DNA of 64,000 nucleotides from IMG/VR virus record IMGVR_UViG_3300025035_000013, positions 24,627 through 88,626 of that record. One strand, written 5' to 3'. Shown here piece after piece: positions 15,239 to 38,512 of the stretch. The position numbers were made by a program, and so were the translations under genes. The notes beneath the pieces were generated by a model that saw nothing but the letters and a program-made list of their open reading frames with translations, was not told the origin of the DNA and searched no databases. Position 1 is the stretch's first letter. Every line of letters starts with the position of its first letter. The DNA comes from a virus.

Positions 15239-15508
15239 TTAAACTCGAGTATTCCATTTTTCTATGCATTCGTCACGCGAGTCGCCATAAATTTCCGCGC
15301 CGCACCCGCCTGCCACTACAGGGCAGTTGTAAGTCCAGCACTTATTATCCTCACTTTTTCTATCCTCAAATGAAATGTAATGTTTAATGCCATCCTCTAT
15401 CCTCCAATAAAGCCCGTTAGGGTATAATGTTTCATTATCTAAAACATCTGAAGGTCTTCCGCAAAATGGACACGATTTTTGCTTTTTTGTAGACATGAAT
15501 TCTTCCAT
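15239..15508 (-). CDS. Lar-family restriction alleviation-like zinc protein
   Basis: CPFCG...C---GGCG...WN-R pattern. Confidence 0.65.
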   Translation of the reverse strand: MEEFMSTKKQKSCPFCGRPSDVLDNETLYPNGLYWRIEDGIKHYISFEDRKSEDNKCWTYNCPVVAGGCGAEIYGDSRDECIEKWNTRV

Positions 15509-15524
15509 TTAATGTAACAATTAA

Positions 15525-15878
15525 GTGTGCTTTTTCTGTTCCCAAGAAAAGCACCAAACTCGGCACTACACGACAATCAAGCCGCTAGTGCATATAAGCT
15601 ATCATTAGCTGCGTTTACTTTATTTACGCTATTTTAGTCAGTCGTCTGACTATCCCAAGAAAGTCTATTTCCTCAAAATCGAATCTATATCAGGCCCATT
15701 ACTAATGATATTAATTTGGTAGTTCAGTTTGATGCACCCATCATATTGGATAGTCCCTTCGTCAAGTTCTATCTATCCGTTTACTGTTTAACACCATTAG
15801 TGGTGGACCTGGGGAGGTACTGCCCCTCCCGTCTTCCAAGCCTTTAATACTCTCCTGCTTTACAATCTTTCGATTGTG
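15525..15878 (-). ncRNA. ssrA: circularly permuted (two-piece) tmRNA
   Basis: Acceptor piece ending CAGGTCC-A-CCA at 15801 precedes the coding piece starting GGGCCTG at 15697; G3:U70 pair; tag AANDSLYALAA* at 15612-15577. Confidence 0.9.
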
Positions 15879-15883
15879 AATTT

Positions 15884-15953
15884 TGGAATCCCCAATAGGC
15901 ATCGAACCTATCCTATTTCTTTAGGAAAGAAATGTCTGTCCATCAGTGAGGAT
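15884..15953 (-). tRNA. tRNA-Arg(CCT) with miniature D-arm
   Basis: Acceptor ATCCTCA/TGGGGAT, loop TTCCTAA, T-loop TTCGATG, CCA; D region only CTGATGGACAG. Confidence 0.65.
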
Positions 15954-16252
15954 GTCTGATTCTTGATTTAATCAACATTAATTTTTCCATATCAATTTTA
16001 CTTTTACAAACATCAGATAATTATGCACGTATTGAACTCTATCCCATAACAAGATTCGTTCGAGTCGGACATAGATTTAATTGTGTATTCAAAGTCAGAT
16101 GTTTCTAGAATTTTGAATCGGGTAGATTATTTAATTGCATCATCAATGTAAAATTCATCAATTCTTCGAATTTTTCTTTTGCTGCTAATGTTGATTCCAT
16201 CACAAAAAGAACATGCGTTTTCATATGTCTTTCCTTATCATAAGTACTGAAT

Positions 16253-16328
16253 TGGTGCCCGGTGTCAGACTCGAACTGACATGCTGTCACTTGTAGGGAG
16301 ACCGATTGAACCTTTCATCTACCCGGGC
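16253..16328 (-). tRNA. tRNA-Val(TAC)
   Basis: Cloverleaf, loop CCTACAA, TTCGAGT, CCA. Confidence 0.85.
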
Positions 16329-16333
16329 ATTAT

Positions 16334-16407
16334 TGGCAACCCTATACGGTAATGCTCCGCATTCGCCGGGTTTGGAGACCGGTACATCACTTTAATGCTT
16401 TAGGGTC
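16334..16407 (-). tRNA. tRNA-Trp(CCA)
   Basis: Cloverleaf, loop CTCCAAA, atypical T-loop AGCATTA, CCA. Confidence 0.8.
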
Positions 16408-16437
16408 ATAAATCAGATTATCATTTTACGAATCTGT

Positions 16438-16530
16438 TGGCGGAAGAGGGCGGAGTCGAACCCCCAAGGGTAAGGTCATTACCTCAACTGTTTTCAAGAC
16501 AGGTACCGTCGCCAGTCGGTTTGCTCTTCC
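16438..16530 (-). tRNA. tRNA-Ser(TGA)
   Basis: GGAAGAG acceptor, loop CTTGAAA, long variable arm, CCA. Confidence 0.9.
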
Positions 16531-16556
16531 ATAGTATTTGCCCACAACTATCATAA

Positions 16557-17008
16557 TTATGCATAACCGTAAACTTCTGTAAAGTTTACTTTTGCTAAAC
16601 GCTTCATCAAAGATGCCAAATTTTGGTGCAGAACACTATAATCGGGACTAACTGCTTCTCTGCGTTTGTAATCGACTAATTCGGCCGATGTTAAGGAATA
16701 AAGGTCACGAAGGCCCTCATCCAGAATGTTGTTTGCTGCATTTACATCTCTATCATGCTCAGCACTACAAGATGGACAAATCCATTCCCTAATGTCGAGC
16801 GGCAAAGACTCTACCTTATGACCACAGCAGTTGCAAGTTTTAGAAGATGGGAAAAAAGTATCAATTTTGGTAAATGTTTTACCGTACCAATTGGACTTAT
16901 ACTCAAGCTGACGCACCAATTCCGACCATGAAGCATCGTGAATTGATTTTGCCAAGTTATGATTTTTAACCATGTTCTTTACTTTTAAAATACTTTAAAT
17001 GATTTCAT
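16557..17008 (-). pseudogene. tnpB: internally deleted TnpB (IS200/IS605/IS607-type) relic
   Basis: RBS plus MKSFKV start (17008) joined out of frame to LKVKNM..; C-terminus has L-YK--W, PSSK-C--CG, W-C--C---HDRD-NAA-NI. Confidence 0.85.
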
Positions 17009-17031
17009 TTTACCTCCGTACACATTAGGAT

Positions 17032-17102
17032 TGGAGGCCGAGGGAATCGAACCCTACCAGCACAATCATCGCAAATGATTGCCGTAACCCATTACTGCCC
17101 CC
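17032..17102 (-). tRNA. tRNA-Ala(TGC), short D-arm, no encoded CCA
   Basis: G3:U70, loop TTTGCGA, TTCGATT; D region GTAATGGGTTAC. Confidence 0.65.
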
Positions 17103-17118
17103 ATAAACTATATTTAAT

Positions 17119-17191
17119 TGGTTGCGACCGCAGGAATTGCACCTACTCCCATTCGTGGTTATGAGCCAGAAGTCTACTGATAGAAGTCGCA
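17119..17191 (-). tRNA. tRNA-Met(CAT), initiator-like, degenerate
   Basis: Acceptor TGCGACT/GGTCGCA, loop CTCATAA, CCA; weak D and anticodon stems. Confidence 0.55.
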
Positions 17192-17221
17192 GTTGTTACT
17201 ATACAAGACGGTATTAGCCAC

Positions 17222-17782
17222 CTATGAATGTGTGGATACGGGACCTTGCAAATTCTTTTTTAATGTTCGTGTTTTATTTACGTGTGTTGCTGAACAAACA
17301 TGACCACAAAATTTGTTATTTCTTTTTGAGTATTCTAACTCTTTACCACAATGTAAACATTTATTTGGATTATTTTTATAATTTTCTTGTTTTATATAAT
17401 GCCGCATATTTCCTAATATTGAGCAGCCATTTTTATTTGCATTTTCCATTGCTGTCTTGTTCTTTTCTATTCGAAGCTCAACATTCGAATTTATATGGTC
17501 CCACCCGCCTAATCCACCAAGTTTCAAATTATAAGTGTTTTCTTCAGATAAGAATTCTTCATTTACTATTTCCTCCTCTTTTGTATACATATCTTCGGAT
17601 GTATCAAATATATAAAGAATCTCTTTTTCAAAATTCTCCAACCCATATTTTTCAATGGCATATCTAAGATACTTACCAGAACCCATATATGAGTCATTCA
17701 AATTTCTGGTCTTATGGCTTCCAATATAGAATTTGCCATCAATTTGATTTGTTATCTTGTAGATTGTATAATATGTTTTCAT
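17222..17782 (-). CDS. GIY-YIG (Seg-like) homing endonuclease; true start at 17782
   Basis: [18 protein letters not shown]...Y-GSG--L--AI-KYG--NF-KEIL; C-terminal CxxC zinc module. Confidence 0.9.
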
Positions 17783-17823
17783 ATTACTATATACAAGTTC
17801 GAGTCTTGACTGTGACTCAAGGG

Positions 17824-17894
17824 AGCGGGAAAGGGGAATCGAACCCCTGTCTTCAGCTTGGAAGGCTGTAATAATGCCATTATACGACTCCCGC
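17824..17894 (-). tRNA. tRNA-Gly(TCC)
   Basis: GCGGGAG acceptor, loop CTTCCAA, TTCGATT; 3' end reads CCC instead of CCA. Confidence 0.9.
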
Positions 17895-17931
17895 ATTGTG
17901 TAAAGATGACACAAAATCATCTTCACTTGTG

Positions 17932-18003
17932 TCAGTGTGGTAGGAATCGAACCTACTGCTCCCCAGTTCCAAGCCGGGATGTCTGCCAATGACTTACACA
18001 CTG
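17932..18003 (-). tRNA. tRNA-Pro(TGG), copy 1
   Basis: CAGTGTG/CACACTG acceptor, loop CTTGGAA; no encoded CCA. Confidence 0.85.
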
Positions 18004-18008
18004 TATTT

Positions 18009-18083
18009 TGGTCTCTCTGGTAGGTATCGCGCCTACTCCTCGTGGTCCCAAACCACGCATGCATCTATTAACACCTCAGAGAG
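18009..18083 (-). tRNA. tRNA-Pro(TGG), copy 2
   Basis: CTCTCTG/CAGAGAG, loop TTTGGGA, T-loop CGCGATA, CCA. Confidence 0.8.
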
Positions 18084-18108
18084 TTATTTTTTGCAAAGCT
18101 AAAACTTG

Positions 18109-18186
18109 TGGGGGAGCAACGAGACTTGCATTCGCAGGACTCCCTGATTCACAGCCAGAGGCTTTACTGATTAAGCTATACTCACC
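18109..18186 (-). tRNA. tRNA-His(GTG), degenerate
   Basis: G-1, loop CTGTGAA; acceptor mismatch and imperfect T-stem. Confidence 0.65.
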
Positions 18187-18237
18187 ATTATTATTGAATT
18201 TGGCAGAAGATGACTAATGCCCAATTGTAATAATCGG

Positions 18238-18310
18238 TCGTCATGGCTGGTATTGCGCCAGCTTGAAACTGCATTATGAAAGCAGTGCATCACTTTTCTG
18301 CCACACGACG
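18238..18310 (-). tRNA. tRNA-Met(CAT), elongator-like
   Basis: CGTCGTG/CATGACG, loop TTCATAA, T-loop CGCAATA; ends CCG. Confidence 0.75.
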
Positions 18311-18316
18311 ATTATT

Positions 18317-18387
18317 TGGTGCCCCGTAACGGTATCGAACCGCTCTGTTCCAGTTTCGAAGACTAGACACTGTCCATCAGACGAGGC
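18317..18387 (-). tRNA. tRNA-Arg(TCG) with miniature D-arm
   Basis: GCCTCGT/ACGGGGC, loop CTTCGAA, TTCGATA, CCA; D region CTGATGGACAG. Confidence 0.75.
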
Positions 18388-18389
18388 AC

Positions 18390-18473
18390 AGGAAGATACA
18401 GGAATCGAACCTGTCGGGCCCTTTCTGGCCGGGAATTTAGCAAACTCCGGTTGCACCTTGCACCACATCTTCC
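18390..18473 (-). tRNA. tRNA-Ser(GCT)
   Basis: GGAAGAT/ATCTTCC, loop TTGCTAA, long variable arm; abuts the next tRNA, no CCA. Confidence 0.85.
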
Positions 18474-18479
18474 ATTGTA

Positions 18480-18554
18480 TGGCGGAGATGAACGGTTACG
18501 ATCCGTCTTGTCCCGGTAGACAGCCGAGCATAATAGCCAGTATATGACATCTCC
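18480..18554 (-). tRNA. tRNA-Asp(GTC)
   Basis: GGAGATG/CATCTCC, G73, loop CTGTCTA, T-loop ATCGTAA, CCA. Confidence 0.85.
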
Positions 18555-18562
18555 AATTATTT

Positions 18563-18648
18563 TGGTACCCGAGGTCGGATTTGAACCGACACGCCCTTAC
18601 GGACACTGCGTTCTAAGCACAGCGCGGCTGCCATTACGCCACTCGGGT
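18563..18648 (-). tRNA. tRNA-Leu(TAG)
   Basis: Loop CTTAGAA, long variable arm, TTCAAAT, CCA. Confidence 0.9.
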
Positions 18649-18672
18649 ATTTATCACATGCGTTAAGTTGTT

Positions 18673-18767
18673 TGGTACTCCCCCACGGTTACGCTCCGTG
18701 CCGTTCCAGCCTATCTGACCAGTCTCCAGACTTTATAAAAATCCGCTGCACACTAATGCTGGGGAGC
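18673..18767 (-). tRNA. tRNA-Ile(TAT), non-canonical (short D region, very long variable region)
   Basis: GCTCCCC/GGGGAGT acceptor, loop TTTATAA, T-loop AGCGTAA, CCA; 95 nt. Confidence 0.65.
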
Positions 18768-18786
18768 ATATTTATTACATTTGTTC

Positions 18787-18860
18787 TGGTGCCCCCAGAA
18801 GGAATCAAACCTCCATGAGTTGATTACAGGTCAACCGTAATATCATTATACGATAAGGGC
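18787..18860 (-). tRNA. tRNA-Thr(TGT)
   Basis: GCCCTTA/TGGGGGC, loop CCTGTAA, CCA. Confidence 0.9.
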
Positions 18861-18949
18861 ATTATTTAAAGCTATGTCCTCTTGCAGGACTCTCGTTATC
18901 ACTAACATCCCAAATTTATGCTCTGACTTAGTGTAGTCATGCATTGCAT

Positions 18950-19025
18950 TGGTAGGAGCAGCGAGGTTCGAACTCGCACCCTGTCGATTAAAAGTCGAAT
19001 GCTCTTCCAGCTGAGCTATACTCCC
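18950..19025 (-). tRNA. tRNA-Lys(TTT)
   Basis: Canonical cloverleaf, loop CTTTTAA, CCA. Confidence 0.95.
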
Positions 19026-19086
19026 AATTCATTATTTGGTTCAGCTCGGGTATATCTTAAAACATATTGCGATTAGACAACTTCTA

Positions 19087-19113
19087 TGGTCTCGGAGACA
19101 GGACTCGAACCAG
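19087..19113 (-). pseudogene. tRNA 3'-end remnant (T-arm, acceptor strand, CCA)
   Basis: CTGGTTCGAGTCCTGTCTCCGAGACCA with no 5' half. Confidence 0.6.
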
Positions 19114-19129
19114 TAGATGTCGGCAAATT

Positions 19130-19208
19130 TGGTCCGCCAGGAGAGACTCGAACTCCCATTGGTCCAATTACACGGCTACCGCTTAGAAGGCGGTTGTGAT
19201 ACTGGCGG
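19130..19208 (-). tRNA. tRNA-Arg(TCT), D-armless with 20-nt variable region
   Basis: Perfect acceptor CCGCCAG/CTGGCGG and anticodon stem ACCGC/GCGGT, loop CTTCTAA, TTCGAGT, CCA; only TATCACA between acceptor and anticodon stems. Confidence 0.75.
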
Positions 19209-19339
19209 TAAATCATATATAATATTATTTTCCTTAATGTGCAGTTTTTGTAAATTTAGAACCCGTTGTTGTAATTGTTACATTTGTTGTATCGGCGGCA
19301 TTAGTCCATAGTGACATTTATAATATGTTTCAGCCAAAT

Positions 19340-19415
19340 TGGTGGGCCCGACCAGGGTCAAACTGGTAGTCTCTCGAATTATGAGTTCGGTGTTTTATCA
19401 TTAAACTACAGGCCC
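19340..19415 (-). tRNA. tRNA-Ile2/Met(CAT)
   Basis: GGGCCTG acceptor, loop CTCATAA, CCA; resembles lysidine-type Ile2. Confidence 0.85.
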
Positions 19416-19434
19416 TATATATGCAACTCAAAGT

Positions 19435-19517
19435 TGGTACCCCGAGTCGGACTCGAACCGACATGCCTAAGCGTCAGGACTTAAATCTGATGCGTCTACC
19501 AATTCCGCCATCAGGGC
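19435..19517 (-). tRNA. tRNA-Leu(TAA)
   Basis: GGCGGAATTGGTAGACGC D-arm, loop TTTAAGT, long variable arm, CCA. Confidence 0.9.
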
Positions 19518-20105: not shown

Positions 20106-20146
20106 CCACCTAACAATCATATCAAGTTTCGATTTAATTGTCAAAT
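20106..20146 (-). promoter_or_regulatory. sigma70-type promoter, 41-bp repeat copy 1
   Basis: TTGACA-17-TATGAT; identical to 20187-20227. Confidence 0.8.
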
Positions 20147-20186
20147 GGTGAAAGATTTACACCTTTCAGTGTTGCCTGTTTCACAA

Positions 20187-20227
20187 CCACCTAACAATCA
20201 TATCAAGTTTCGATTTAATTGTCAAAT
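20187..20227 (-). promoter_or_regulatory. sigma70-type promoter, 41-bp repeat copy 2
   Basis: TTGACA-17-TATGAT; a third promoter (TTGACA 20344-20339, TATAAT) lies upstream. Confidence 0.8.
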
Positions 20228-20426
20228 TTATTTATCAATCAATGATTTGGCGAAATTTCATCCAATTCATTATGAAACAAATTGATTCACCAAAACATTT
20301 AAATCGACATAATCAATTATATAGATTTTTAATTAATTGTCAAATGTCTAATAAAAACAACAATTTACCCCTTTGACAACCTCGCGAGGATGTCAAAGTA
20401 AACAATAAAAGTACTCATGCTTACGT

Positions 20427-35646: not shown

Positions 35647-36639
35647 TCAGTCAAAAAATGATTCTAATGAACTTTCTTCTCTCAATTTCCAGCCAGCACA
35701 ATCTGTCAATGATTTCATTGCATTTTCTACTGTCTTCTCAAACTGCGTATCATAATCTAAGTATCCATGCAGTTTAAATTCAGGAGGCAAATCAATATTA
35801 GAAGGAAAGCCTATTACGTTTTGTCTAATTGGATTTGGCATCTTCAAATATAAGAATTTTATTTTGTCCCCATTTTGAATTTGTTGATATTGTTTGAATT
35901 TAACTGCATTCATATTGAACAGACAGGCTGCCCTTACATGCATAGGTACTGTCATGCCGGTTCTAATTGCATTATTTGCAAAATATTTGCCAATATCACT
36001 CACTCCCCGCGGGAATGCTACTTCACTAGGCGGCAATGTTTTGAATTCTTTCTCCAGTTCCAAAAATCTCTTTCGTAGAGTATATTCATCTGATTCAAAC
36101 ATCAACTGTAATAATTCTTTTAATTTATTTCTGCACCATTTAGGGGTAGACGACCTTACAATCTCAATTCCCATTACTTTAAGTTTAGGTGGATTGTATG
36201 CAACCCCTTCGGAGTTATATACATACATTGCGTAGTTCTTTTTTGCTCGATATAACATCTTTGACGCAATTGCTTCTCTCTTACTTCCCATTATTTTATC
36301 ATAAGCATTCATTTTATCAAAAATCACACTGACGCTATTATTGATAATTGGTTGACATATTTTATTAGCGAAATCATCCAAAAATTTAACAACATCACCT
36401 GTCGATTTGTTTGACGCAAATTTATCTACAATTCTCTGACAATTAATAATCACAGAGTCAGTGTCGCCTGCAATAATATAATCTACATCTTTTGTTTCTA
36501 ATATTTTATTGAAATTCATATTCAACAAATTTGCCAAATGGATGTCTGATAGTTGACCAGTAAGTGTAATCGCCTCAGCCATGCGATAATCATAATAATG
36601 GAACCCCTCATTGCCAATGCTGCCGAATGCAGAATTCGC
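35647..36639 (-). CDS. gp43: DNA polymerase gp43B, exon 2
   Basis: ANSAFGSIGN (motif B), AGDTDS (motif C), KKNYA, G-EIVRSSTP, C-terminal SLESFF clamp-binding motif. Confidence 0.92.
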   Translation of the reverse strand, partial: ANSAFGSIGNEGFHYYDYRMAEAITLTGQLSDIHLANLLNMNFNKILETKDVDYIIAGDTDSVIINCQRIVDKFASNKSTGDVVKFLDDFANKICQPIINNSVSVIFDKMNAYDKIMGSKREAIASKMLYRAKKNYAMYVYNSEGVAYNPPKLKVMGIEIVRSSTPKWCRNKLKELLQLMFESDEYTLRKRFLELEKEFKTLPPSEVAFPRGVSDIGKYFANNAIRTGMTVPMHVRAACLFNMNAVKFKQYQQIQNGDKIKFLYLKMPNPIRQNVIGFPSNIDLPPEFKLHGYLDYDTQFEKTVENAMKSLTDCAGWKLREESSLESFFD

Positions 36640-36879
36640 CTTTTGTGTTTAAATGAAGTCGTTAATTTCATCCCATATAGCTGCATATTACTATGCAGAA
36701 CAGACTATCTCTTCACCTTCACAGGTGCTATGCGCTTCGAGTCACTTGACCCTACGGCTTTCGCCTAGTCGTTACACCTTCCCATATTAGGGCTTGGCTC
36801 GGTATTGTCCCAATTTGGGATGTTCACCGAATTCACATAGTTTTCAATTACAAATTTCTTTGTATTGCGCCCACGATTA
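36640..36879 (-). mobile_element. group I self-splicing intron, 240 nt, no homing endonuclease
   Basis: U|TAA 5' junction, terminal G; P GAATTCGGTGAA, Q AATACCGAGCCAAG, R AACGACTA, S GAAGAGATAGTCTG; P3 CTATGTG/CGCATAG; removal restores KIA-ANSAFG. Confidence 0.9.
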
Positions 36880-36984
36880 AGCGATTTTCAATGCAAGTTG
36901 TTTATTTTTTAATGCTGCTATTTTTGCTCTACTACTATTTCTCAATTCTAAAAGCTCGTCTAAAGTCATTTCTGAATAATTCAT
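36880..36984 (-). CDS. gp43: DNA polymerase gp43B, exon 1 (35 codons)
   Basis: MNYSEMTLDELL...KQLALKIA; AGGA RBS. Confidence 0.85.
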
Positions 36985-37015: not shown

Positions 37016-38512
37016 CTACGGTCGCGCTGCGCGTTCACTTATTTCCCTTTCTATAATTTGATATTCCGATTCTAGTCGAAGCATTTCTTTTTTAGCTATT
37101 GCACGACCAGTCATACAATATTCCATCAATTCTGCTAGAAATCCTTTTTTGGATTTATCATACATTGTACCATTTGCAGCAATTGTATGATTGATTGATT
37201 TTGCATAATCAATGGCAGCAATAGCATCTGCATCATTATCCAAGAAATTTCTTGCTCTAATATCATATTCCGGTGCTCTAAATGTCTCCGGCGATATGTT
37301 CCATTGACGAATAACAGAAGGATATAGGGATGAGAAGTCGAAAGACATACACCATCCATACATGCCCTGTATACCGTCTTTCACCCATGCACCTTCTACA
37401 TCCCCCCTCAATCCATTTTTTCGAGGCGGAACTGCAATCTTTTTCTTATTCAAGTGATGATAGATGAATGCTTCCCATGGAGCAACAGTGCGATATACAT
37501 CTCCTAGATTGCAATGATACATATATGCCATAGCAAAAGCAAGTTCAATCAACTTCATCTTGTCTTCTAATTTCTTAACAAGAATTGAGTCTATCGCATT
37601 ATATCTCACGAAAGTGTCGAAGTGGTTTACGTAAGAATCTCTGAATGACACCCCTGGTAATTCAAGTTTTGTTTCGCCAAGTTCTTCTTGGGCAATAAAT
37701 CCTAATGCGTACGATTCTTTCGATGAATATGTGCCGAATTTCTTATAGAGTTCAAGATAATCCAAGTCTATGATACCATAAATCTCATACGTCTGAATTT
37801 CTTTTCCACGGATATTAACCATCTTTTCACGAATATAATTGAATGGCGATAGCCGTTTAACTTGTGTCTCATCAAATAGTAGTTTGATTCGATTAATCAT
37901 ATATGGTATATCGAATCCTGATGTATTCCACCCCGTCCAAACATCTGGTTTTGTTGCAATCTGAAATTCGATAAAAAACTTTAATAGTTCTTTCTCAGTA
38001 TCAAATTTTTTATATATAAAGGCATCAGACTCAACTTTATCAAACTCTTTTAATCCTAATACGACCGTTTTATCTGTTATATTATCGTGTATAGATATGA
38101 GAACAATCGGAATGCGCGCTGCCTGAATATCAGGAAAACCTTCTTCGGAATCCTCATCTACTGTTTCGATGTCTATCGTGTGAATTTTTACATGTGATAT
38201 ATCATATTCAATATCTCCTGGAAATTTTGAATTTATATATTGAAGGTTCCACTTAGTCATGCCATGAAGTTCAATCCCATGGACATCCTTATACATTTCT
38301 ACATAATCTTTTGCTTCTCGGATATTATTGAATTGAATTGGTTCGAGTGGGGTGTTTTTGTATAAATCATTCCAAGATTTTTCGTCTCTATTTTTTGTGG
38401 AAACGAATAATGTAGGGCCAAAATCAATCTTTTCGATTATTTGTCGGCCCTTATCATATCCTCTATATAATATAGAATTACCAAGAGTTTGGCAATAAGT
38501 GTAAAATTTCAT
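37016..38512 (-). CDS. gp43: DNA polymerase gp43A (exonuclease plus N-terminal polymerase half)
   Basis: IDIE, TGWN--GFD-PY, YN--D, motif A SFDFSSLYPS; ends in the fingers helix. Confidence 0.92.
   Translation of the reverse strand: MKFYTYCQTLGNSILYRGYDKGRQIIEKIDFGPTLFVSTKNRDEKSWNDLYKNTPLEPIQFNNIREAKDYVEMYKDVHGIELHGMTKWNLQYINSKFPGDIEYDISHVKIHTIDIETVDEDSEEGFPDIQAARIPIVLISIHDNITDKTVVLGLKEFDKVESDAFIYKKFDTEKELLKFFIEFQIATKPDVWTGWNTSGFDIPYMINRIKLLFDETQVKRLSPFNYIREKMVNIRGKEIQTYEIYGIIDLDYLELYKKFGTYSSKESYALGFIAQEELGETKLELPGVSFRDSYVNHFDTFVRYNAIDSILVKKLEDKMKLIELAFAMAYMYHCNLGDVYRTVAPWEAFIYHHLNKKKIAVPPRKNGLRGDVEGAWVKDGIQGMYGWCMSFDFSSLYPSVIRQWNISPETFRAPEYDIRARNFLDNDADAIAAIDYAKSINHTIAANGTMYDKSKKGFLAELMEYCMTGRAIAKKEMLRLESEYQIIEREISERAARP

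What the first reader, a model, noticed from the sequence alone, without database searches (positions are those of the whole stretch)
15525..15878. Phage-encoded circularly permuted (two-piece) tmRNA
Seen on the minus strand in the order: acceptor piece (GAAA hairpin, CAGGAGAGT, T-arm, CAGGTCC-A-CCA ending 15801), a 103-nt intervening segment, then the coding piece (GGGCCTG from 15697, tag AANDSLYALAA*, terminal hairpin). The pieces pair via a G3:U70 acceptor stem, TTTTGAG/CTTGGAA and ACTTTCTTG/CAGGAGAGT. The intervening segment closes with a 14-bp helix (ACTAATGGTGTTAA/TTAATATCATTAGT). Known: two-piece tmRNAs occur in alphaproteobacteria, some cyanobacteria and a betaproteobacterial lineage, and the phage tmRNAs I know of are one-piece. 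Inference: a functional ribosome-rescue RNA acquired from such a host, with a non-TPsiC T-loop (GGCAGTA).
Basis: partly seen in the sequence, partly recalled or inferred. Interest (0 to 1): 0.85.

Follow-up and report, generated by a model that had tools for sequence, protein, structure and literature searches.

The report
Two-piece tmRNA gene in a phage
A T4-like phage from groundwater carries a real, apparently intact gene for a circularly permuted ("two-piece") ribosome-rescue RNA; such genes are already described in phages, so this is a divergent new example and not a first.

Summary
Rfam's permuted-tmRNA model (RF04321) hits window 15577-15866 (-) at 82.2 bits against a cut-off of 47, E 3e-14. 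In 61 distinct relatives from IMG/VR, the T stem, helix P2a and the helix that closes the intervening segment all show compensatory changes. Aquifer metatranscriptomes hold the locus.

Two-piece phage tmRNAs are published: Buchholz 2022 (PMC9004378) lists 53 unique ones. I also found unannotated alpha-type copies in four isolated phages of Alphaproteobacteria. The "non-TPsiC" T-loop GGCAGUA is the alphaproteobacterial consensus (GGCgGUA), not an oddity.

At least 269 IMG/VR contigs share this exact acceptor stem, mostly with long intervening segments closed by a helix. ARAGORN misses this gene and 24 of the 32 relatives tested that have this T-loop class.

A recent capture from the host is not shown. 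The gene falls below the cut-offs of both lineage-specific models (alpha 41.4 against 50; beta 36.4 against 84), and the host is unknown. Verdict: new member of a known kind, of modest interest.

The parts
15801..15878 (-). Acceptor piece (78 nt). It holds the 5' GAAA hairpin (15877-15862), the P2b 5' strand (15857-15849), the P2a 5' strand (15840-15834), the T arm (15830-15812; 6-bp stem GGGAGG/CCUCCC, loop GGCAGUA), the acceptor 3' strand CAGGUCC (15811-15805), discriminator A (15804) and encoded CCA (15803-15801).
   Evidence: Sequence. Rfam RF04321 alignment. The T stem has compensatory changes at 5 of 6 pairs and is 98% paired in 61 relatives.
15698..15800 (-). Intervening segment (103 nt), expected to be excised from the precursor. 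It is closed by a helix (15800-15788 with 15713-15701; 14 bp if the A of CCA is counted), followed by the 3-nt spacer AAU before G1.
   Evidence: Sequence and MFE fold. The homologous closing helix has compensatory changes at 9 of 9 pairs and is 94% paired. Its median length is 11 contiguous bp in 194 distinct relatives, against 5 for mismatched partners.
15524..15697 (-). Coding piece (about 174 nt). It holds the acceptor 5' strand GGGCCUG (15697-15691), the D-loop analogue AUAUAGAUUCGA (15690-15679), the P2a 3' strand (15678-15672), the P2b 3' strand (15664-15656), a hairpin (15652-15635), the tag frame and the terminal hairpin.
   Evidence: Rfam RF04321 and RF01849 alignments. P2a has compensatory changes at 7 of 7 pairs and is 92% paired.
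15577..15612 (-). Tag reading frame: resume codon GCA, peptide AANDSLYALAA, stop codon UGA.
   Evidence: Sequence. It fits the family pattern AND[S/E]x[F/Y]ALAA and aligns to the tag region of both Rfam models.
15525..15555 (-). 3'-terminal hairpin of the coding piece, with the conserved loop CUUGGGAACAGAA.
   Evidence: It matches the 3' end of the RF01849 consensus. The same loop sits on covarying stems in six IMG/VR relatives and in Caulobacter phage CcrPW.
15884..15953 (-). tRNA-Arg(CCU), 5 nt upstream of the tmRNA gene. It is the last tRNA of a cluster of at least 13 tRNA genes (15884-19517).
   Evidence: ARAGORN. RNA-library contigs span the tRNA-Arg and the acceptor piece without a break.
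20116..20343 (-). Three near-consensus sigma-70-type promoters at the head of the tRNA/tmRNA gene block. They are the likely source of the precursor transcript (inferred).
   Evidence: Consensus scan, 11-12 of 12 matches each. These are pattern matches only.

Best explanation
This is a genuine, intact, circularly permuted ssrA gene carried by a T4-like phage from groundwater.

Inferred mechanism:
1. The gene is transcribed with the upstream tRNA cluster from host-type promoters.
2. The precursor folds so that the closing helix of the intervening segment stacks on the acceptor stem.
3. RNase P cuts before G15697, and 3' trimming exposes the encoded CCA at 15801. The 103-nt intervening segment is lost.
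4. That leaves a 78-nt acceptor piece and a coding piece of about 174 nt, held together by the acceptor stem, P2a and P2b.
5. Host AlaRS charges the complex through G3:U70 and A73. Host SmpB and EF-Tu deliver it to stalled ribosomes.
6. Translation resumes at GCA and adds AANDSLYALAA, a ClpXP-type degradation tag.

The likely benefit to the phage is that ribosomes keep being recycled while host transcription is shut off and mRNAs are being cleaved.

Shown: the sequence and structure features, family membership, covariation, and presence in RNA libraries. Inferred: processing, charging, tagging and the benefit to the phage.
For: - Family match: RF04321 at 82.2 bits against 47, E 3e-14 to 1e-17.
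- Requirements met in the sequence: G3:U70, A73, CCA, T arm, Ala resume codon, tag ending ALAA plus stop.
- Covariation in 61 distinct relatives: 84.9% of cells paired against 33-48% when partners are slid, and 0 of 500 shuffles reach the observed values. P2a, the T stem and the closing helix each show compensatory changes.
- The tag fits the family consensus.
- The terminal hairpin is conserved with covarying stems.
- The precursor folds with z = -6.4. The tmRNA-like fold lies within 1.6 kcal/mol of the MFE.
- RNA: aquifer metatranscriptome contigs cover the acceptor piece plus tRNA-Arg. In two runs their low-coordinate ends lie 3 and 6 nt past the CCA. Other contigs cover the tag and the terminal hairpin.
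- The RNA runs hold 28-48% of the sampled words of this 601-nt stretch, against about 7% for a 10-kb coding stretch of the same phage.
- Precedent: two-piece tmRNAs in phages (PMC9004378).
Against: - No direct evidence for cleavage into two RNAs. One RNA-library contig (15622-15772) crosses the predicted RNase P site, so it is unprocessed precursor or DNA carry-over. All RNA evidence is low-depth contigs (2-3x) with no DNA-contamination control laid on them.
- No SmpB gene in the record, which is only 57% complete, so function depends on an unknown host's SmpB.
- ARAGORN rejects the gene.
- The score of 82 bits is below almost all bacterial alphaproteobacterial tmRNAs, which mostly score 120-170.
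- The T stem has 6 bp instead of 5.
- The pairing of D-loop type with T-loop type is unique among 194 relatives, so SmpB or tertiary fit could be impaired.
- P2b is not testable by covariation in my alignment.
Confidence: 0.8

Rival explanations
1. The RNA is made, but it acts as a modulator or decoy and not as a rescue factor. It might titrate host SmpB or AlaRS, as the TLD-only RNA of mycobacteriophage DS6A is proposed to do. It might also redirect tagging so that host proteins are degraded for recycling.
For: There is no phage SmpB in the record. The TLD geometry is unusual: a 6-bp T stem and an odd D-loop/T-loop pairing. The DS6A precedent is cited in PMC4131195. The recycling idea is raised in PMC9004378.
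Against: A complete, family-typical tag frame with resume codon, stop and ALAA end is kept. A pure decoy would not need it. P2a and the terminal hairpin are conserved.
Confidence: 0.1
2. It is a decaying, non-functional copy of a tmRNA gene picked up by horizontal transfer.
For: It is below the curated cut-offs of both lineage models: alpha 41.4 against 50, beta 36.4 against 84. No close relative exists among 269 family members beyond short conserved blocks. ARAGORN fails on it.
Against: Every functional determinant is intact. Helices are maintained by compensatory change across the family. The locus is over-represented in RNA libraries relative to a coding stretch.
Confidence: 0.07
3. It is an attP-type remnant: a fragment of host ssrA carried by a phage that integrates into the tmRNA gene.
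For: tmRNA genes are common integration sites, and phages then carry the displaced 3' fragment (PMC4383910 abstract; PMC9004378).
Against: Both pieces, the tag frame and the terminal hairpin are complete. The phage is T4-like. None of the ten ORFs scanned matched an integrase family; the one integration-related hit is a partial transposase-like ORF.
Confidence: 0.01

Closest known systems
Two-piece (permuted) tmRNAs of sequenced phages: Methylophilales phage Melnitz, pelagimyophages, Caulobacter phages CcrSC and CcrBL9 and others (Buchholz et al. 2022, PMC9004378)
   Same: A phage-borne, circularly permuted ssrA in a large, mostly aquatic myo- or sipho-type phage. The gene is complete, with a tag frame.
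   Different: There is no blastn similarity to any INPHARED record. No glutamine riboswitch is attached: no Rfam hit reached the gathering score. This gene sits at the end of a tRNA cluster, comes from groundwater, and is missed by ARAGORN, the program used for that survey.
Alphaproteobacterial two-piece tmRNA (Rfam RF01849), including the unannotated copies I found in Erythrobacter phages XM05 and vB_EliS-L02, Mesorhizobium phage Cp1R7A-A1 and Caulobacter phage CcrPW
   Same: T-loop GGCAGUA against the consensus GGCgGUA. A 5' hairpin in the acceptor piece. A terminal hairpin with the loop UGGNAACAGAA. An AAND... tag start, as I recall for the Caulobacter tag. The phage copies also have long intervening segments of 81-94 nt.
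   Different: It scores 41.4 bits, below the cut-off of 50. The acceptor stem is GGGCCUG, not GGGGGCG or similar. The T stem has 6 bp. The tag is short and ends ...YALAA, which I recall as typical of beta- and gammaproteobacteria.
Betaproteobacterial two-piece tmRNA (Rfam RF01850), for example in Cupriavidus
   Same: Identical acceptor stem GGGCCUG/CAGGUCC and the ACCA end. The 10-11-residue tag is of the ANDxxFALAA type. Some IMG/VR relatives with the same acceptor stem pass the beta model (L074 at 142 bits, L037 at 89.8).
   Different: It scores 36.4 bits against a cut-off of 84. The beta consensus has a canonical GGUUCGAUUCC T-loop and a 32-nt intervening segment in Cupriavidus.
One-piece phage tmRNAs (mycobacteriophage Bxz1 group, Bacillus phage G) and tmRNA/SmpB in huge phages (PMC4131195; PMC7162821)
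   Same: A phage-encoded component of trans-translation, assumed to sustain or sense host translation.
   Different: Those genes are in the standard, unpermuted order, and some of those phages also encode SmpB.

Membership tests
Permuted (two-piece) tmRNA, Rfam RF04321 | Score at or above the curated gathering threshold of the covariance model | tested here: met
   82.2 bits against 47; E 3.3e-14 over the window and 1.2e-17 over the record.
Permuted (two-piece) tmRNA, Rfam RF04321 | Permuted gene order: the acceptor piece ending in CCA lies upstream, then an intervening segment, then the coding piece starting with the 5' acceptor strand | tested here: met
   CCA ends at 15801, the 103-nt segment follows, and G1 is at 15697.
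Permuted (two-piece) tmRNA, Rfam RF04321 | tRNA-Ala identity: a 7-bp acceptor stem with G3:U70, discriminator A and a CCA end | tested here: met
   GGGCCUG pairs with CAGGUCC, the third pair is G:U, and A-CCA follows.
Permuted (two-piece) tmRNA, Rfam RF04321 | T arm and P2 helices joining the two pieces, supported by comparative data | tested here: met
   The T stem is 98% paired and P2a is 92% paired, both with compensatory changes; none of 500 shuffles reach the observed values. P2b is supported only by its 9-bp complementarity in this sequence (94 of 3000 by chance).
Permuted (two-piece) tmRNA, Rfam RF04321 | Tag reading frame with an Ala resume codon, a hydrophobic ...AA end and a stop codon | tested here: met
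   GCA...AANDSLYALAA-UGA at 15612-15577, which fits the family pattern.
Permuted (two-piece) tmRNA, Rfam RF04321 | The precursor is cleaved into two stable RNAs | tested here: inconclusive
   Contigs from two RNA runs end 3 and 6 nt past the CCA, but another contig crosses G1. These are low-depth contigs that cannot define RNA ends.
Permuted (two-piece) tmRNA, Rfam RF04321 | Alanylation, SmpB binding and tagging activity | not testable with these tools
   There is no SmpB (PF01668) in the 98.7-kb record, which is 57% complete. The host is unknown.
Alphaproteobacterial tmRNA, Rfam RF01849 | Score at or above the gathering threshold (50 bits) | tested here: not met
   41.4 bits, E 2.3e-10 in a 701-nt search. 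The gene is alpha-like in its T-loop and terminal hairpin but is not filed as a member.
Betaproteobacterial tmRNA, Rfam RF01850 | Score at or above the gathering threshold (84 bits) | tested here: not met
   36.4 bits.
Cyanobacterial tmRNA, Rfam RF01851 | Any match at the locus | tested here: not met
   The only hits are about 14 bits, fall on tRNA-like stretches elsewhere, and none lies at the tmRNA locus.

The most novel reading that the evidence does not exclude
The gene may belong to a large lineage of permuted tmRNAs that is maintained by phages and has been under-counted. The supporting observations:
- At least 269 IMG/VR contigs share one acceptor stem.
- These genes combine a beta-type acceptor stem and tag with, in about a third of members, an alpha-type T-loop.
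- Most have long intervening segments (60 nt or more in at least 234 of the 269) with a conserved closing helix and a UGAU or UAAU spacer.

If so, phages would be evolving and shuttling two-piece ssrA genes between proteobacterial classes and not merely borrowing them from the current host. They could even be the source of the betaproteobacterial two-piece lineage.
Probability: 0.2. Interest if true: 0.55.

Novelty: new member of a known kind. Interest (0 to 1): 0.3.

Why it matters
- It adds a groundwater T4-like phage to the phages that carry their own ribosome-rescue RNA.
- It shows a practical blind spot. ARAGORN, used for the published phage surveys, found 58 of 60 relatives with canonical-type T-loops but only 8 of 32 with the alpha-type loop, and it missed this gene. 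Phage tmRNA counts are therefore probably too low. Four isolated phages of Alphaproteobacteria carry such genes unannotated.
- The covarying closing helix of the long intervening segment gives a concrete, testable processing signal for permuted tmRNA precursors.

Tried and rejected
- blastn or megablast of the tmRNA region, of a 20-kb stretch, and of two relatives' tmRNAs against INPHARED phages found nothing. The own record may be masked there. Only a 38-nt T-arm/acceptor probe at E up to 10 gave leads. Phaeobacter phage MD18, one of those leads, has no tmRNA by Rfam.
- ARAGORN found no tmRNA.
- The genome-contig scan for the acceptor pattern with a 20-50-nt gap returned 120 rows. Only 4 of them, all Cupriavidus, are real tmRNAs; the rest are chance matches in GC-rich genomes.
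- No relatives can be drawn for a virus record.
- The paper on the third two-piece lineage (PMC516066) is not held.
- P2b could not be tested by covariation, because MAFFT did not align those columns homologously (44% paired).
- The idea that sitting next to tRNA genes is typical of the family was rejected: only 31 of 224 relatives have a tRNA gene within 2.5 kb.
- A cyanobacterial origin was rejected. It was suggested by the cyanomyophage-like DNA polymerase (about 41% identity), but the cyano model does not hit the locus.
- A first cofold script with constraints crashed and gave no output. It was redone on the precursor.

Full report
**1. Observation**

- A GAAA hairpin (15877-15862).
- CAGGAGAGU (15857-15849).
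- CUUGGAA (15840-15834).
- A T arm (15830-15812).
- CAGGUCC-A-CCA, ending at 15801.
- A 103-nt intervening segment (15800-15698).
- GGGCCUG starting at 15697.
- UUUUGAG (15678-15672) and ACUUUCUUG (15664-15656).
- A frame encoding AANDSLYALAA plus stop (15612-15577).
- A terminal hairpin (about 15555-15525).

The acceptor stem has G:U at its third pair. The intervening segment is closed by a helix of 14 pairs, two of them G:U.

Rfam's permuted-tmRNA model RF04321 matches 15577-15866 at 82.2 bits against a gathering score of 47. E is 3.3e-14 for the window and 1.2e-17 for the whole 98.7-kb record. The 355-nt precursor folds at -112.5 kcal/mol, z = -6.4, and none of 100 shuffles folds as well. 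The MFE structure contains the GAAA hairpin, the T arm, the acceptor stem, the 14-bp helix and the terminal hairpin. It does not contain P2a or P2b. Enforcing those two helices costs only 1.6 kcal/mol. ARAGORN finds 13 tRNAs in the window but not the tmRNA.

**2. Comparative support**

An exact-pattern scan of IMG/VR used the acceptor strands in permuted order. That is at least 269 contigs.

I aligned 61 distinct relatives and counted pairs against the structure taken from this gene.

| Helix | Cells paired | Pairs with compensatory change |
|---|---|---|
| T stem | 98.1% | 5 of 6 |
| P2a | 91.8% | 7 of 7 |
| Closing helix of intervening segment | 93.6% | 9 of 9 |

Overall, 84.9% of cells are paired, against 33-48% when the partners are slid, and none of 500 shuffles reach the observed values. 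The acceptor stem could not vary, because the search pattern fixed it. The P2b columns were not homologous in the MAFFT alignment (44% paired). P2b therefore rests on its 9-bp complementarity in this sequence, which arises by chance in 94 of 3000 shuffles, and on the 4 of its pairs that are in the Rfam model.

Taken sequence by sequence, the closing helix has a median of 11 contiguous pairs in 194 distinct relatives, against 5 for mismatched partners. The spacer before G1 is UGAU in 151 relatives and UAAU in 36. This gene has 13 pairs (14 with the A of CCA) and UAAU.

Tag peptides in the family are dominated by AND[S/E]x[F/Y]ALAA, and AANDSLYALAA fits that pattern. The terminal hairpin loop CUUGGNAACAGAA recurs on covarying stems in six relatives and in Caulobacter phage CcrPW.

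**3. Genome and habitat**

The window belongs to an IMG/VR virus record that CheckV puts at 57% complete. PHROG scans identify a T4-type DNA polymerase, a DnaB-like helicase, DNA ligase, RNA ligase, ribonucleotide reductase and RIIA. The polymerase gene is interrupted by a group I intron at 36681-36889. The closest isolated phages by polymerase are marine cyanomyophages, at only about 41% identity. GC content is about 36%.

The DNA occurs in many aquifer metagenomes and in a hot-spring sample. The tmRNA gene lies 5 nt downstream of tRNA-Arg(CCU), at the end of a tRNA cluster. Three near-consensus sigma-70 promoters lie at the head of that block. A small Lar-like ORF follows the gene. No SmpB gene is in the record.

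**4. RNA evidence**

Three aquifer metatranscriptome runs hold 48%, 30% and 28% of the sampled words of the 601-nt stretch around the gene. For a 10-kb coding stretch of the same phage, the shares are 7% (X22), 7% (X24) and not listed for the third run, X23. The contigs laid on the locus are:
- 15795-16009 and 15798-15990: tRNA-Arg plus the acceptor piece. Their low-coordinate ends lie 6 and 3 nt beyond the CCA.
- 15622-15772: crosses the predicted RNase P site.
- 15483-15657: the tag, the terminal hairpin and the start of the next ORF.

This is consistent with co-transcription with the tRNA and with a 3' end near the CCA. It also shows precursor or DNA carry-over. These are contigs at 2-3x depth and cannot define RNA ends. 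Processing therefore remains inferred.

**5. Lineage**

The alpha model RF01849 matches 15524-15905 at 41.4 bits against a cut-off of 50, E 2e-10. The beta model RF01850 gives 36.4 bits against 84. The cyano model does not hit the locus.

The alpha consensus T-loop is GGCgGUA, and its 3' end (…GGCAACAGAA…CACU) matches the terminal hairpin here. All 13 bacterial alphaproteobacterial tmRNAs I could parse have GGCRGWA T-loops, with GGCAGUA in three of them. Their intervening segments are 12-73 nt.

The acceptor stem GGGCCUG/CAGGUCC was not seen in those alpha genes. It is identical to that of Cupriavidus two-piece tmRNAs; L207 scores 281 bits on the beta model. My recollection, not tested here, is that the short ...YALAA tag is the beta/gamma style.

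Within the IMG/VR family, some members pass the alpha model (L003, L007, L120) and others the beta model (L074, L037), although all five have GGCRGWR T-loops. The family, and this gene in particular, is therefore mosaic or intermediate. I do not file the gene under either lineage-specific family.

RF04321 passes its cut-off in 146 of 151 sampled Alphaproteobacteria, mostly at 120-170 bits, and in 8 of 151 Burkholderiales. The alpha tally includes one unpublished genome, G194; no other claim rests on it. At 82 bits this gene is a divergent member. It has no close relative among the 269 contigs beyond short conserved blocks.

**6. What is already known**

Buchholz et al. 2022 (PMC9004378) describe a two-piece ssrA in the OM43 myophage Melnitz and in pelagimyophages. 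They count 133 unique tmRNA structures from 402 of 18,146 phage genomes, 53 of them two-piece and 50 of those aquatic. Their table lists Caulobacter phages among the permuted cases. The 2025 tmRNA database holds 79 phage sequences. Huge phages carry tmRNA and SmpB (PMC7162821).

I additionally found permuted tmRNAs that pass both RF04321 and RF01849, in unannotated intergenic DNA of four isolated phages:
- Erythrobacter phage XM05.
- Erythrobacter phage vB_EliS-L02.
- Mesorhizobium phage Cp1R7A-A1.
- Caulobacter phage CcrPW.

Their intervening segments are 81-94 nt long.

**7. Detection bias**

On distinct family members, ARAGORN of 60 with TTCRA or TGCGA T-loops. It calls only 8 of 32 with GGCRGWR loops, and none of the three with a 6-bp T stem, this gene among them. 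Both the Buchholz and the huge-phage surveys used ARAGORN.

**8. Verdict**

It is a new, divergent member of a known kind: phage-borne two-piece tmRNA. The claims of novelty and of an aberrant T-loop do not hold. Acquisition from the current host is untested.

Three things are mildly new:
- the size of the phage clade that shares one acceptor stem;
- its long, helix-closed intervening segments;
- the ARAGORN blind spot.

Noticed in passing
IMG/VR relatives L002-L121 and L315 onward; window 15679-15690 and 15818-15824: The D-loop analogue and the T-loop co-vary as classes in 194 distinct relatives. TTCRA loops go with GG-UUUCGA (63 of 69). TGCGA loops go with AG-AUUCGA (41 of 47). GGCRGTR loops go with AGG-AUCGA (49 of 61). 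The window's gene is the only one that combines GGCAGUA with AG-AUUCGA. This looks like a tertiary D/T-loop or SmpB-contact co-variation.
   Followed up: partly
L242 (PV416404.1), L243 (MH588545.1), L244 (MT188704.1), L245 (OL955261.1): Four isolated phages of Alphaproteobacteria carry permuted tmRNA genes above the Rfam cut-offs, in stretches with no annotated feature. Three of them also have tRNA genes within a few hundred bases.
   Followed up: yes
window 36681-36889 (-): A group I intron (93.9 bits) splits the T4-type DNA polymerase gene between the ORFs at 37016-38512 and 35647-36582.
   Followed up: no
window 16557-16973 (-): A 138-aa ORF matches only the C-terminal part of transposase PHROGs (phrog_506, E 1e-41). 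It sits inside the tRNA cluster and may be a remnant of a mobile element.
   Followed up: no
window 15239-15508 (-): The ORF immediately downstream of the tmRNA weakly resembles Lar-like restriction-alleviation proteins (phrog_599, E 2e-6). One RNA-library contig runs from the tmRNA coding piece into it.
   Followed up: no
window 18111-18185 (-) and 16442-16530 (-): Rfam finds a weak extra tRNA (32.9 bits) that ARAGORN does not call. The tRNA-Ser(UGA) scores at the gathering threshold of the tRNA-Sec model (47.4 against 47).
   Followed up: no
G001 (Cupriavidus consociatus), loci L252-L255: This genome has one strong permuted tmRNA (134.5 bits) plus further matches at 87.2 bits, 78.6 bits (only model positions 1-133) and 35.1 bits. 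These may be extra copies, or fragments left by island or prophage integration.
   Followed up: no
L007 8395-8551: A viral contig with a family tmRNA also carries a Polynucleobacter-1 RNA motif (64.2 bits). This hints at freshwater Burkholderiales hosts for part of the family.
   Followed up: no
IMG/VR family, 224 loci: Only 31 of 224 relatives have a tRNA gene within 2.5 kb of the tmRNA. The position of the window's gene at the end of a tRNA cluster is therefore the exception.
   Followed up: yes
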